Shown here: positions 7,238 through 8,191 of the stretch, piece by piece
How positions within the stretch are numbered: position 1 is the stretch's first letter
How the letters are laid out: every line of letters starts with the position of its first letter
Sequence record: PV611058
Length of the DNA: 64,000 bases
Reading direction: 5' to 3' (one strand)
Source of the DNA: Escherichia phage WPEC3
Notes under the pieces: generated by a model
Seen by the model: only the letters and a program-made list of their open reading frames with translations
The model's database searches: none
What the model was told of the DNA's origin: nothing
Program-made: the position numbers and the translations under genes

Positions 7238-8191
7238 TTAGAGTGAGCTTAACAGCAAATCCGCTCTGTTTGTAACTTGGCGATACCACAAGGAATTCAT
7301 GATTTCTTTCTTGAACTTCTTAGGGTTATCCATTTTAACACTTTTCCAAAGTTTGTCAAATGTTGCCAACTTATCAACGCCCATTGTGTATGACATTTCA
7401 AACAGGATACGCTGCTGTTCTTTTGTCAGATTAACTGCATCTTTCTTCTGCATCAATAGTGTAAAGTCCTCGTAAGTCCTTTTCATATCTTGCATTAAAA
7501 GTTTGTTGGCCTGTGCTTTGGTAATCCCGTTTCTGTACTTCATTGCATCAGAATCTTTCTTACCCAAATAATGCCCATAACCAATTGTATAATTACCTTT
7601 CATGTCCTTATAGGGATGAAATTTAGAATTGTGGAAAGGAACTCCAACTTTCCCACCAAGTAAACGTCGTTTGTTCTTGGACTGAAATTCAATAGAACCT
7701 TCAGCTTCTTTGATGTGATTGACAATTTCTGGATCTTTATAATCAAACAGTACAGTCACATCTGGTAACAATACGTTCTTCAAATCCTCTTTTGTTGGGA
7801 TAAAGATACCCTGAGAAGTATGAAGAGTTGCATTTAAGTTGATGTTCTTCAACAAAATGACATAATCTTCAATCTGTACATTTTTAGGTTTAAATTTCTG
7901 TGCAATAGAATAATAACTATCACCAGGTTGAACCGTATAATGTTTCTCGCTGCTTGGAACTGCTTTTGGTACTGACACCTGTGGTAGTTCCTGCTTTTGA
8001 ATTTGCGTAACTTGTGGTTTTAAATTATGCACCTGACTTTCGTCTAATGATGATGCACGATCACTTTGAGAAAAACCATAAAATCCAATCGCAGCGAATA
8101 GGGCTGATGAAACTAATACGCCTACGGCAATTTTAGTTTTCAGTGCTTTTTTCGCTTTTTTCAAAACGCCTCCTTTGTTGGTTGTTAACAA
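7238..8191 (-). CDS. membrane-anchored LysM + T4-lysozyme-like (GH24) protein, putative endolysin
   Basis: 317 aa; N-terminal hydrophobic anchor, LysM-like YTVQPGDSYYSIAQKF, C-terminal YTIGYGH...WYRQVTNRA resembling T4 lysozyme. Confidence 0.65.
   Translation of the reverse strand: MLTTNKGGVLKKAKKALKTKIAVGVLVSSALFAAIGFYGFSQSDRASSLDESQVHNLKPQVTQIQKQELPQVSVPKAVPSSEKHYTVQPGDSYYSIAQKFKPKNVQIEDYVILLKNINLNATLHTSQGIFIPTKEDLKNVLLPDVTVLFDYKDPEIVNHIKEAEGSIEFQSKNKRRLLGGKVGVPFHNSKFHPYKDMKGNYTIGYGHYLGKKDSDAMKYRNGITKAQANKLLMQDMKRTYEDFTLLMQKKDAVNLTKEQQRILFEMSYTMGVDKLATFDKLWKSVKMDNPKKFKKEIMNSLWYRQVTNRADLLLSSL

What the first reader, a model, noticed from the sequence alone, without database searches (positions are those of the whole stretch)
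7238..8191. Lysozyme-like protein carries an N-terminal membrane anchor and a LysM domain; spanin-like pair is 9 kb away
T4 lysozyme is soluble, whereas this 317 aa protein has a hydrophobic N-terminal segment, a LysM module and a GH24-like C-terminal domain whose catalytic Glu is not obvious without alignment. It could be a signal-anchor-release endolysin or a non-lytic cell-wall-binding protein. A lipoprotein plus type-II membrane protein pair (16631-17316) resembles o/i-spanins but is not adjacent, and no holin was identified.
Basis: partly seen in the sequence, partly recalled or inferred. Interest (0 to 1): 0.35.

Follow-up and report, generated by a model that had tools for sequence, protein, structure and literature searches.

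The report
Membrane-anchored LysM lysozyme of jumbo phage
This gene of a PBECO4/121Q-like jumbo coliphage encodes a cell-wall-cutting lysozyme that is exported, tied to the inner membrane and carries a wall-binding LysM module. The same architecture was described for its orthologs in 2017, and the phage also has an ordinary soluble late lysozyme, so the role of this enzyme is untested but not new.

Summary
Window 7238-8164 (minus strand) encodes a 308-aa protein; the ORF as given, to 8191, is 9 codons too long. Its parts are a Lys-rich N-tail, a TM segment (aa 12-31), a disordered linker, LysM (75-121) and a GH24 lysozyme domain (145-308).

The catalytic triad is present and invariant: Glu155, Asp187, Thr193. 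A family-specific 30/31-residue insertion separates Glu and Asp (8 residues in T4 lysozyme), which is why the Glu was not obvious.

The window comes from an Asteriusvirus (Rak2-like) jumbo phage. The protein is 99.7% identical to fEgEco12 Gp275. The ortholog CBB_187 (= 121Q gp532) was described in 2017 as TM + LysM-like + lysozyme and as a putative SAR endolysin.

The pair at 16631-17316 is the published two-component spanin.

Outside the window the phage has a canonical soluble 162-aa T4-type lysozyme with its own TATAAATA late promoter, and its UE-S1 ortholog is muralytic in vitro.

Evidence leans against a classical SAR mechanism: a +6 N-tail, a 125-aa spacer, and remote relatives with 80-97-aa cytoplasmic domains or strongly hydrophobic anchors.

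New details are a conserved non-ATG start, a conserved leader block and a tight link to an HPF gene.

The most likely function is an exported, membrane-anchored muramidase that contributes to lysis.

The parts
7238..8164 (-). CDS of the 308-aa TM-LysM-GH24 protein. TTG start at 8162-8164, TAA stop at 7238-7240. The finding's end coordinate 8191 is an upstream in-frame TTG without a Shine-Dalgarno sequence.
8132..8164 (-). Cytoplasmic N-tail MKKAKKALKTK, net charge +6.
8072..8131 (-). Signal-anchor / TM segment, aa 12-31 (IAVGVLVSSALFAAIGFYGF). 47% of residues are Gly/Ala/Ser/Thr, and there is no conserved signal-peptidase site.
7943..8071 (-). Low-complexity Q/P/S-rich linker, aa 32-74. It is variable in length across the family and has pLDDT below 50.
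7802..7942 (-). LysM domain, aa 75-121.
   Evidence: Pfam PF01476, marginal hit; beta-alpha-alpha-beta fold in the AF2 model
7241..7732 (-). GH24 (T4-type) lysozyme domain, aa 145-308. It includes the conserved 31-residue insertion between the catalytic Glu and Asp (aa 156-186).
7700..7702 (-). Codon of the catalytic Glu155 (motif KEAEG; equivalent to T4L Glu11).
7604..7606 (-). Codon of Asp187 (equivalent to T4L Asp20).
7586..7588 (-). Codon of Thr193 (equivalent to T4L Thr26).
8165..8274 (-). Conserved 5' leader. It holds the invariant block GTAGAAAGTCC (8239-8249) and CTTTTGCAAAT (8221-8231), then the AAGGAGG Shine-Dalgarno sequence.
8281..8308 (-). Sigma70-type promoter-like site, TTGATA-16-TGcTATACT. 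A consensus match only.
6890..7222 (-). HPF/RaiA (Ribosomal_S30AE) homolog, 15 nt downstream. This gene pair is conserved even in remote relatives.
6854..6881 (-). Strong terminator-like hairpin (12 pairs followed by a T-run) that closes the lysozyme-HPF unit.
16942..17316 (-). i-spanin: 124 aa, N-terminal TMD followed by a coiled-coil periplasmic domain.
   Evidence: PHROG 1152 'Rz-like spanin', E=1.2e-27; PMC6139136
16631..16945 (-). o-spanin: 104-aa lipoprotein with lipobox LISG|C. It overlaps the i-spanin gene by 4 nt.
   Evidence: PMC6139136

Best explanation
The gene encodes a catalytically competent GH24 muramidase that reaches the periplasm through the Sec pathway without needing a holin. 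It stays attached to the inner membrane by an uncleaved N-terminal signal-anchor (N-in, C-out).

A flexible linker of about 40 residues and a LysM module place the enzyme on the glycan strands. Glu155/Asp187/Thr193 cleave the MurNAc-GlcNAc bond. It is the clade-specific 'exported endolysin' of Rak2-like jumbo phages.

I infer that it is made at a low, tightly controlled level, given its own sigma70-type promoter, long conserved leader and obligatory TTG/GTG start. I also infer that its action becomes lethal when the membrane is de-energised at the end of the cycle. At that point it would cooperate with the late soluble T4-e-like lysozyme (g331 type, outside the window) and with the spanin pair at 16631-17316.

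Shown here: the domain architecture, the conservation of the catalytic residues, the topology signals, the gene context and the paralogs.

Inferred: export, enzymatic activity in vivo, timing and a role in lysis.

I do not think it is a classical SAR endolysin. Membrane attachment is probably stable, or needs a helper for release.
For: Fold and catalysis:
- PF00959 E=2.9e-11.
- Foldseek matches T4L with probability 1 and TMt 0.68 over the full chain.
- E155/G156/D187/T193 are invariant in 36 sequences at 46-86% identity and in 13 representatives at 50% identity, with a fixed Glu-Asp spacing of 30/31.
- The two paralogs have the same Glu-insertion-Asp layout. One of them, LysUE1, is enzymatically active (PMC12805682).

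Export and anchoring:
- A Lys-rich tail precedes a 20-residue hydrophobic segment with no conserved AXA cleavage site.
- Every one of the 12 remote full-length representatives keeps some N-terminal export or anchor signal.

Activity without a holin:
- Induction of CBB_187 in E. coli inhibits growth and prevented cloning (Buttimer 2017, data not shown).

Non-structural:
- The protein was not found in the CBB virion proteome.
- In phAPEC6 the second predicted lysozyme, Gp293, was not detected in the virion proteome. Gp293 is the ortholog by genome position only; I did not check its sequence.

Lysis partners:
- The spanin pair lies in the window (PMC6139136).

Controlled expression:
- The start is TTG (13 loci) or GTG (4 loci) and never ATG in 17 orthologous loci, always behind a strong SD. 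The genome background for non-ATG starts is 11%.
- An invariant leader block is shared by four genera and is unique within about 184 kb searched.
- A sigma70-like promoter lies upstream in 11 of 13 loci, against 0.29 expected per 260 nt.
Against: - The phage already has what looks like a complete T4-style lysis set without this protein. It has a soluble late lysozyme with its own TATAAATA, spanins, and a weak candidate T-like holin, g406 (PHROG 860 E=6e-4; the authors' HHpred probability is 89.9).
- This gene has no late-promoter word. TATAAATA occurs 0 times in the 64-kb window against 10.5 +/- 3.3 expected.
- It sits among early/middle-type genes: tk, the CCA-adding enzyme, an Acb1-like gene and HPF. 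An early-made, tethered enzyme that can reach the wall should be dangerous to the phage.
- No lysis phenotype, timing data or transcriptome exists for any member of the family.
- The toxicity report is 'data not shown'.
Confidence: 0.5

Rival explanations
1. Classical signal-anchor-release (SAR) endolysin, as proposed by the first reader and by Buttimer 2017. The protein would be tethered and inactive until a (pin)holin collapses the proton motive force. The TM segment then leaves the bilayer and the freed enzyme degrades the wall.
For: - An N-terminal TMD with basic residues ahead of it sits on a GH24 enzyme, as in P1 Lyz, R21 and Mu gp22 (PMC9239132).
- The window protein's TMD is 47% Gly/Ala/Ser/Thr.
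- Some orthologs carry a Glu inside the TMD (P0021, P0024, P0035, P0053).
- CBB_187 is toxic on induction.
Against: - The N-tail has 6 Lys (net +6). SAR endolysins typically have 2-3 basic residues, and two Lys are enough to make Mu gp22 dependent on a releasin (PMC9239132).
- The family TMDs are mostly Leu-rich, with a Gly/Ala/Ser/Thr fraction of 0.26-0.47.
- The remote member P0078 has a fraction of 0.06, and P0074 looks like a cleavable signal peptide.
- P0072, P0075 and P0077 have a conserved 80-97-aa cytoplasmic domain before the TMD, with their own strong SD. That domain could not cross the membrane.
- 125 residues, including LysM, separate the TMD from the catalytic domain, and the protein has no Cys. 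Neither known tether-inactivation mechanism (R21 refolding, P1 disulfide caging) can apply (read from the sequence).
- No pinholin is adjacent. The 2-TMD ORF at 10353-10577 is conserved only within Asteriusvirus.
Confidence: 0.17
2. Not the lysis enzyme. It would be an early or middle, permanently membrane-tethered periplasmic murein-remodelling enzyme, co-inherited with a ribosome-hibernation factor (HPF). Its role would be to change host envelope physiology during the long jumbo-phage cycle, for example by loosening the sacculus for cell enlargement or modulating the wall in dormant hosts. Terminal lysis would be done by the late soluble g331-type lysozyme, a holin and the spanins.
For: - There is no late promoter, whereas the soluble paralog has one.
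- A sigma70-type promoter is conserved upstream.
- The neighbours are early/middle-type genes.
- A PF02482 HPF gene lies 4-26 nt downstream in the window, in 8 of 11 other loci, and in two remote relatives on unrelated short contigs (gaps of 11 and 101 nt there).
- The stable-anchor variants show that release is not needed for function.
Against: - A tethered, LysM-targeted active lysozyme with a 40-residue linker should damage the wall.
- CBB_187 is reported to be toxic.
- No precedent or data exists for such a role.
- Promoter calls are consensus matches only. The count in 6500-9500 (16) is not enriched over shuffles (12.2 +/- 3.3).
- Read-through late transcription cannot be excluded.
Confidence: 0.25
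3. A catalytically dead, wall-binding or structural (virion-borne) lysozyme-like protein.
For: - Its closest non-family sequence matches are lysozyme domains of virion proteins: the phiKMV-type internal virion protein (PDB 28sd, E=1.8e-7) and the baseplate hub PHROG 13211.
Against: - The catalytic triad is invariant.
- It has an N-terminal membrane anchor.
- It is absent from the CBB virion proteome, and the presumed phAPEC6 ortholog (Gp293, by position) was not detected either.
Confidence: 0.04

Closest known systems
CBB_187 / 121Q gp532 / GAP32 gp180 (Buttimer et al. 2017 also name 'RaK2 gp506'; in the RaK2 paper the matching gene is probably ORF029). Described in PMC5259590.
   Same: These are orthologs: 54% identity to CBB and about 89% to 121Q. 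They have the same TM + LysM + GH24 architecture, the same genomic neighbourhood and the same downstream HPF gene.
   Different: Nothing essential differs. This is the same protein family in a different isolate. fEgEco12 Gp275 is 99.7% identical. Only the prediction has been published, with no experiment.
SAR endolysins of the GH24 class (P1 Lyz, phage 21 R, Mu gp22; PMC9239132)
   Same: An N-terminal TMD with N-in/C-out topology on a T4-type lysozyme domain, Sec-dependent export, and a Glu/Asp/Thr triad.
   Different: - The N-tail is +6 rather than 2-3 basic residues.
- The TMD is less rich in Gly/Ala.
- A 125-aa linker and LysM lie between the TMD and the enzyme.
- The spacing is E-x31-D-x5-T instead of the canonical E-x8-D-x5-T.
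- There is no Cys.
- Relatives have long cytoplasmic domains or strongly hydrophobic anchors.
- It is not in a lysis cassette with a pinholin.
Mu gp22 + gp25 'releasin' system (PMC9239132)
   Same: A membrane-tethered lysozyme whose basic cytoplasmic residues hinder spontaneous release. It shows that a helper can be needed and that a holin is not obligatory.
   Different: I did not scan for a DUF2730/releasin homolog; none of the neighbouring ORFs I did scan matched one. The Mu enzyme has no LysM and has the canonical E-x8-D spacing.
T4 gene e lysozyme and the phage's own soluble paralog (fEgEco12 g331, LysUE1 of UE-S1, CBB_239)
   Same: The same GH24 fold and triad. The paralog shares the insertion between Glu and Asp and is 36% identical to the catalytic domain.
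   Different: Those enzymes are soluble proteins of about 162 aa, transcribed from a TATAAATA late promoter and dependent on a holin. This protein is exported, anchored, carries LysM and lacks a late promoter.
Modular Gram-negative endolysins with a wall-binding domain (KZ144, EL188)
   Same: A peptidoglycan-binding module fused to a muralytic domain in a phage of a Gram-negative host. This is rare, as noted in PMC5259590.
   Different: Those use a PG_binding_1-type domain, have no membrane anchor and have a transglycosylase catalytic domain (my own knowledge).
Signal-peptide-exported endolysins (e.g. Lys44 of oenophage fOg44; my own knowledge)
   Same: Holin-independent Sec export, with activity restrained until the membrane is de-energised. 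The family member P0074 appears to have a cleavable signal peptide.
   Different: That is a Gram-positive system with a cleaved signal, not an anchor.

Membership tests
GH24 / T4-type phage lysozyme (PF00959) | Profile match above the curated threshold | tested here: met
   44.2 bits against a cut-off of 22.3, E=2.9e-11, aa 191-297 of the 317-aa ORF.
GH24 / T4-type phage lysozyme (PF00959) | T4L fold | tested here: met
   The AF2 model has pLDDT about 90 for aa 72-308. Foldseek matches T4L with probability 1.00, TMt 0.67-0.68 and 173 aligned columns on a 164-aa target.
GH24 / T4-type phage lysozyme (PF00959) | Catalytic Glu / Asp / Thr (T4L E11, D20, T26) | tested here: met
   E155/D187/T193 align with them and are invariant in the family. 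The spacing is E-x31-D-x5-T, not the canonical E-x8-D-x5-T. HMM and hhalign local alignments stop before the Glu because of the insertion.
GH24 / T4-type phage lysozyme (PF00959) | Muramidase activity | not testable with these tools
   Only indirect evidence exists. The paralog LysUE1, which has the same type of insertion, is active (PMC12805682).
LysM (PF01476) | Profile match above threshold | tested here: inconclusive
   21.4 bits against a cut-off of 20.9, but only profile positions 1-17 of 43 are matched. Only 2 of 66 homolog clusters carry a precomputed PF01476 hit.
LysM (PF01476) | beta-alpha-alpha-beta fold of about 45 residues | tested here: met
   Strand 75-77, helix 84-91, helix 98-108 and strand 119-121 at pLDDT about 90.
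SAR (signal-anchor-release) endolysin | N-terminal TMD, N-in/C-out, uncleaved, on a muralytic domain | tested here: met
   Hydrophobic aa 12-31 follow a Lys-rich tail. No conserved small-x-small cleavage motif is present in the alignment.
SAR (signal-anchor-release) endolysin | TMD made mainly of weakly hydrophobic residues (Gly/Ala/Ser/Thr), as defined in PMC9239132 | tested here: inconclusive
   47% in this protein, 26-47% in the close family and 6-53% in remote members. My crude delta-G sum is not discriminating: the i-spanin TMD control scored +4.95.
SAR (signal-anchor-release) endolysin | Short cytoplasmic tail with 2-3 basic residues that can cross the membrane | tested here: not met
   The tail has 6 Lys in 11 residues (net +6). 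Relatives P0072, P0075 and P0077 have conserved 80-97-aa cytoplasmic domains. Criterion taken from PMC9239132.
SAR (signal-anchor-release) endolysin | Release from the membrane by a pinholin or by PMF collapse (the definitive test) | not testable with these tools
   An experiment is needed. No published data exist.
SAR (signal-anchor-release) endolysin | Encoded in a late lysis cassette with a (pin)holin | tested here: not met
   The neighbours are an Acb1-like gene and HPF. There is no TATAAATA in the window. The nearest 2-TMD ORF (10353-10577) has no functional match and is not syntenic outside the genus.
Two-component spanin (for the pair 16631-17316) | i-spanin: N-terminal TMD plus a coiled-coil periplasmic domain | tested here: met
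   PHROG 1152 'Rz-like spanin', E=1.2e-27; sequence.
Two-component spanin (for the pair 16631-17316) | o-spanin: small outer-membrane lipoprotein with a lipobox, whose gene is adjacent to or overlaps the i-spanin gene | tested here: met
   MKYALVFAISFLLISG|C, with Ala at +2. The genes overlap by 4 nt. There is a weak Pfam LysC/Rz1-like hit, E=0.011. PBECO4/121Q spanins are listed in PMC6139136.
Canonical soluble endolysin (T4 e type) | Cytoplasmic, with no export signal, late-transcribed and holin-dependent | tested here: not met
   This protein has an anchor and no late promoter. The paralog g331, outside the window, fulfils these features.

The most novel reading that the evidence does not exclude
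The TM-LysM-GH24 protein would not be a SAR endolysin at all. It would be a permanently membrane-anchored periplasmic muramidase that forms a deeply conserved two-gene module with a phage ribosome-hibernation factor (HPF). It would be transcribed by unmodified host RNA polymerase and held down by an obligatory weak start codon and an invariant, gene-specific 5' leader element. Its job would be to remodel the host wall during infection, or to serve as a holin-independent fail-safe. Terminal lysis would be carried out by the separate late soluble lysozyme, a holin and the spanins.
Probability: 0.25. Interest if true: 0.55.

Novelty: already known. Interest (0 to 1): 0.27.

Why it matters
As submitted, the finding restates what is already annotated and published for this phage clade, so on its own it adds little.

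What remains open, and mildly interesting, is the reason for two non-virion lysozymes in Rak2-like jumbo phages: one soluble and late, one exported, anchored and LysM-targeted. It is also unclear how the anchored enzyme is kept harmless.

If it works while tethered, or needs a releasin-like helper, it would extend the short list of endolysin control modes (holin-released, SAR, releasin-dependent, signal-peptide). That would be relevant for people engineering Gram-negative lysins.

The conserved lysozyme-HPF linkage and the invariant leader give concrete handles for experiments.

Tried and rejected
1. T4-e-like translational masking, in which an upstream anti-SD (GCCTCTTTG / CCCTCTTTG) pairs with the SD. 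Folding the leader gives z=-0.41 and leaves the SD unpaired in the MFE structure. The probability that the SD is unpaired is 0.40, against a genome mean of 0.44 +/- 0.16 (rank 17 of 50). Strong sequestration occurs only in some other genera (0.09-0.10 in L013, L014 and L016), so it is not conserved. Rejected for this genome.

2. Leader block as a recurring promoter or regulon motif. GTAGAAAGTCC and CTTTTGCAAAT occur together only here in about 184 kb. There is no Rfam match. By eye the block is not a sigma54 -24/-12 promoter, because the spacing is wrong. It remains unexplained.

3. A hydrophobicity sum (Hessa scale) to separate a SAR domain from a stable TMD. It is uninformative: the i-spanin TMD control scores worse than the lysozyme TMD.

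4. The 74-aa two-TMD ORF (10353-10577) as a dedicated pinholin. Its only match is PHROG 22328, of unknown function, and it is not syntenic outside Asteriusvirus. No support.

5. The small TM ORFs at 8957-9103 and 6657-6848 as holin or releasin. They match only PHROGs of unknown function.

6. The T-like holin g406, outside the window. Support is weak only: PHROG 860 E=6e-4 and the authors' HHpred probability of 89.9. phmmer against the PDB finds nothing.

7. A profile-profile alignment (hhalign) to place the Glu. The local alignment begins after the insertion. A global MAFFT alignment with the paralogs was needed.

8. A transcriptome for the clade. None was found, and PA5oct is too distant to be informative.
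Full report
**1. What is there**

The window contains the ORF as described: 7238..8191 on the minus strand, 317 aa, TTG start. An AAGGAGG Shine-Dalgarno sequence lies 5 nt before a second TTG at 8164. The near-identical GenBank record annotates that start (fEgEco12 g275, 308 aa). The PHROG profile begins there, and all orthologs start at the equivalent codon. I therefore treat the gene as 7238-8164, 308 aa. All residue numbers below use that numbering; add 9 for the finding's numbering.

**2. Where the window comes from**

Megablast of 5000-12000 gives 99.4-99.5% identity to Escherichia phages EC.P1 and fEgEco12. 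Identity is 84-88% to 121Q and PBECO4. The source is therefore an Asteriusvirus, a member of the 'Rak2-like' jumbo myoviruses with genomes of about 350-380 kb. The protein is 99.7% identical to fEgEco12 'lysozyme'. It is 48-55% identical to orthologs in the Yersinia, Serratia, Pectobacterium (CBB) and Klebsiella phages of the group.

**3. Domains**

- Pfam finds Phage_lysozyme (E=2.9e-11) and a marginal, partial LysM hit.
- PHROGs places the protein in family 15410, of unknown function (E=1.9e-162). Weaker hits are to hub or tail lysozymes and endolysins.
- An AlphaFold2 model built on a 36-sequence family alignment is confident for residues 72-308, with pLDDT about 90.
- The model shows a complete LysM beta-alpha-alpha-beta unit at 75-121 and a lysozyme domain from 145.
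- Foldseek aligns the lysozyme domain over the entire T4 lysozyme chain (probability 1.00, TM-score 0.68).
- Residues 1-71 are unstructured in the model. They comprise MKKAKKALKTK, the hydrophobic stretch IAVGVLVSSALFAAIGFYGF and a Q/P/S-rich linker whose length varies across the family.

**4. The catalytic Glu**

HMM and profile-profile alignments to T4L start at T4L residue 15-16 and miss Glu11. The reason is an insertion.

A MAFFT alignment of the catalytic domain with T4L and the phage's two other lysozyme domains puts the Glu of K-E-A-E-G on T4L Glu11. It puts Asp187 on Asp20 and Thr193 on Thr26.

The two paralogs have 21 residues between Glu and Asp. This protein has 31, and T4L has 8.

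E155, G156, D187 and T193 are invariant in 36 family sequences, as are several insertion residues (Q161, R166, L168, G171). The E-x30/31-D-x5-T signature is kept in all 13 representatives clustered at 50% identity. The enzyme therefore looks catalytically competent, and the 'non-lytic binder' reading is unlikely.

**5. How wide the family is**

A word-indexed search found 66 clusters. All are 290-334 aa except one fragment, and all lie on contigs of up to 366 kb. An exhaustive profile search of 1.84 billion representatives found only 12 with the full-length architecture at E<1e-30. Below that level, hits are stand-alone GH24 or LysM proteins. The architecture is confined to one phage clade.

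**6. What was already known**

- Buttimer et al. 2017 (PMC5259590) described CBB_187 as an N-terminal TM domain, a LysM-like domain and a lysozyme domain. They named homologs in GAP32 (gp180), 121Q (gp532) and RaK2. They called it the predicted endolysin, pointed to the SAR system, and noted toxicity on induction (data not shown).
- The RaK2 paper lists three lysozymes and no T holin (PMC3622015).
- Kongari et al. 2018 list two-component spanins for PBECO4, 121Q and GAP32 (PMC6139136).

I found no experimental work on this protein. The finding is thus a rediscovery of a published prediction.

**7. The other lysozymes**

tblastn finds no second lysozyme in the window, but every genome of the clade has three matching places. 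In fEgEco12 the other two lie in the baseplate operon:
- g332, an 887-aa hub protein with a C-terminal lysozyme domain.
- g331, a 162-aa stand-alone soluble T4-type lysozyme.

g331 has a perfect T4 late-promoter word, TATAAATA, 18 nt upstream of its ATG. That word is strongly avoided in this genome. It occurs 0 times in the 64-kb window against 10.5 +/- 3.3 expected. It occurs only twice in 50 kb of structural genes, both times directly in front of a gene. The word is conserved before the 121Q ortholog, and CBB_239 has ATAAATA, the late consensus reported for CBB.

The virion proteomes detected the hub lysozyme (CBB_240, phAPEC6 Gp241). They did not detect CBB_239 or CBB_187. In phAPEC6 the second predicted lysozyme, Gp293, was also undetected; it is the ortholog of this gene by genome position only.

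The UE-S1 ortholog of g331, LysUE1, was purified and is muralytic (PMC12805682). The clade therefore has a canonical late soluble endolysin candidate.

**8. Holin and spanins**

The pair at 16942-17316 and 16631-16945 is a convincing i-/o-spanin pair.

No holin is in the window. The only candidate in the genome is fEgEco12 g406. [quoted passage not shown] Support for it is weak.

**9. Is it a SAR endolysin?**

Features in favour:
- An N-terminal uncleaved TMD on a GH24 enzyme.
- 47% Gly/Ala/Ser/Thr in this TMD.
- A Glu inside the TMD of some orthologs.

Features against:
- The N-tail carries six Lys. SAR endolysins usually have 2-3 basic residues, and in Mu gp22 two Lys suffice to block release without a releasin (PMC9239132).
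- Most family TMDs are Leu-rich, with a Gly/Ala/Ser/Thr fraction of 0.26-0.47.
- Remote members show every kind of export signal. P0074 has a probable cleavable signal peptide. P0078 has a very hydrophobic anchor (fraction 0.06). P0072, P0075 and P0077 have a conserved 80-97-aa cytoplasmic domain before the TMD.
- That extension is real. The extended ORFs have their own Shine-Dalgarno sequences: a strong TAAGGAGGT in L073 and a weaker TAAGGAAA in L072.
- 125 residues, including LysM, separate the TMD from the catalytic domain, and there is no Cys. The known ways in which tethering inactivates SAR enzymes cannot apply.

The common denominator of the family is periplasmic export with, in most members, membrane attachment. 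Releasability is not a shared feature. I therefore file it as working like an exported, membrane-tethered endolysin, but not as a demonstrated or even likely member of the classical SAR class.

**10. Expression signals (new observations)**

- All 17 orthologous loci start with TTG (13) or GTG (4) and never ATG, behind a strong SD. About 11% of annotated genes in this genome use non-ATG starts.
- The 5' leader keeps an invariant block, GTAG(A/G)AAGTCC-N8-CTTT(G)TGCAAA, 84-102 nt upstream of the start. This holds in four genera whose proteins are only about 50% identical.
- The block is preceded by a small hairpin with four covarying pairs.
- The block is unique in about 184 kb searched and has no Rfam match.
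- A sigma70-type promoter lies 30-65 nt upstream of the block in 11 of 13 loci, against a background of 0.29 per 260 nt.
- I tested and rejected SD masking as a conserved feature.

These points suggest host-RNAP (early-type) transcription and gene-specific post-transcriptional control. No transcriptome exists to confirm this.

**11. Gene context**

In the window, the gene directly upstream (8332-8742) is a 2H-phosphoesterase/Acb1-like protein. Pfam 2H-SAK gives E=5.9e-5, and the fEgEco12 authors report an HHpred match to Acb1. It is conserved upstream in all genera, although most of them have one extra gene between it and the lysozyme gene.

Directly downstream, after 15 nt, lies an HPF/RaiA homolog (PF02482, E=2.3e-10), followed by a strong terminator hairpin. 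A sigma70-like site inside the 3' end of the lysozyme gene may also drive HPF; the fHe-Yen9-03 record annotates the same site.

The lysozyme-HPF adjacency holds in 8 of 11 other loci. It also holds in the two remote long-form relatives found on short, unrelated contigs. That is a deeper conservation than expected for chance neighbours. I have no mechanism for the link.

**12. Verdict**

My best explanation, at confidence 0.5, is a Sec-exported, inner-membrane-anchored, LysM-targeted active GH24 muramidase. It would be made under tight control and would contribute to lysis together with the late soluble paralog and the spanins.

Confidence in the alternatives:
- A non-lytic wall-remodelling role linked to HPF: 0.25.
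- A classical SAR endolysin: 0.17.
- An inactive or virion protein: 0.04.

The architecture and the SAR idea are already in the literature, so novelty is low. The open question of why there are two non-virion lysozymes, and how the anchored one is restrained, is modestly interesting.

Noticed in passing
window 39157-39842: This is an assembly artefact inside phage sequence. Two copies of the Illumina TruSeq adapter AGATCGGAAGAGCACACGTCTGAACTCCAGTCAC lie at 39321-39354 and 39784-39817. Five homopolymer runs of 70-78 C or G surround them. A 77-nt flank is repeated three times, at 38929, 39080 and 39528. GC is 0.71-0.74 in the 300-nt bins spanning 39200-39799, against about 0.35 elsewhere. The artefact disrupts the reading frame of the local gene, which by coordinates is the Sir2-like / NUDIX region of fEgEco12.
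   Followed up: partly
window 8332-8742 (-): The gene immediately upstream of the lysozyme gene is a 136-aa 2H-phosphoesterase. Pfam 2H-SAK gives E=5.9e-5, below the curated cut-off. The fEgEco12 authors report an HHpred match to the anti-CBASS nuclease Acb1 (7T26_A, probability 97.6). The GenBank product name 'viral L protein' is spurious. The gene is conserved upstream of the lysozyme gene in all genera examined.
   Followed up: partly
window 6890-7222 (-), and loci L007-L022, L072, L073: A phage-encoded ribosome hibernation factor (HPF/RaiA, PF02482) follows the TM-LysM-lysozyme gene in the window and in 8 of 11 other loci (gaps of 4-26 nt). It also follows in two remote relatives on unrelated contigs (gaps of 11 and 101 nt). 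The linkage is unexplained.
   Followed up: yes
window 8165-8274 (-): The 5' leader contains an invariant block, GTAGAAAGTCC...CTTT(G)TGCAAA, shared by four genera. It occurs only at this gene and has no Rfam match. Every ortholog uses a TTG or GTG start. The function is unknown.
   Followed up: yes
whole window; locus L002 34940 and 40985: The T4-type late-promoter word TATAAATA is absent from the entire 64-kb window (10.5 +/- 3.3 expected). It occurs only twice in 50 kb of structural genes, each time just upstream of a gene (g331 and g335). This strong avoidance implies that it is the functional late promoter of this phage.
   Followed up: partly
window 10353-10577 (-): A 74-aa protein with two TMDs and an acidic C-terminus lies next to the thymidine kinase gene. 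Its topology resembles a class II holin or pinholin, but its only match is PHROG 22328 (unknown function), and it is conserved only within Asteriusvirus.
   Followed up: partly
fEgEco12 PP777464.1 246852-247514 (locus L004 2353-3015, outside the window): [quoted passage not shown] Its similarity to the T4 holin T family is weak: PHROG 860 E=6e-4, and the authors' HHpred probability is 89.9. phmmer against the PDB finds nothing.
   Followed up: partly
window 16017-16628 (-): A 203-aa HNH endonuclease gene sits directly downstream of the o-spanin gene, according to the fEgEco12 annotation (g253). It is a possible mobile insertion next to the spanin pair.
   Followed up: no
proteins P0072, P0075, P0077 (loci L072, L073): A subfamily of the TM-LysM-GH24 proteins carries a conserved 80-97-aa N-terminal cytoplasmic domain (motif (I/V)DYV(K/N)xNx(V/I)SxD(E/D)A) with no Pfam match. 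Its function is unknown.
   Followed up: partly
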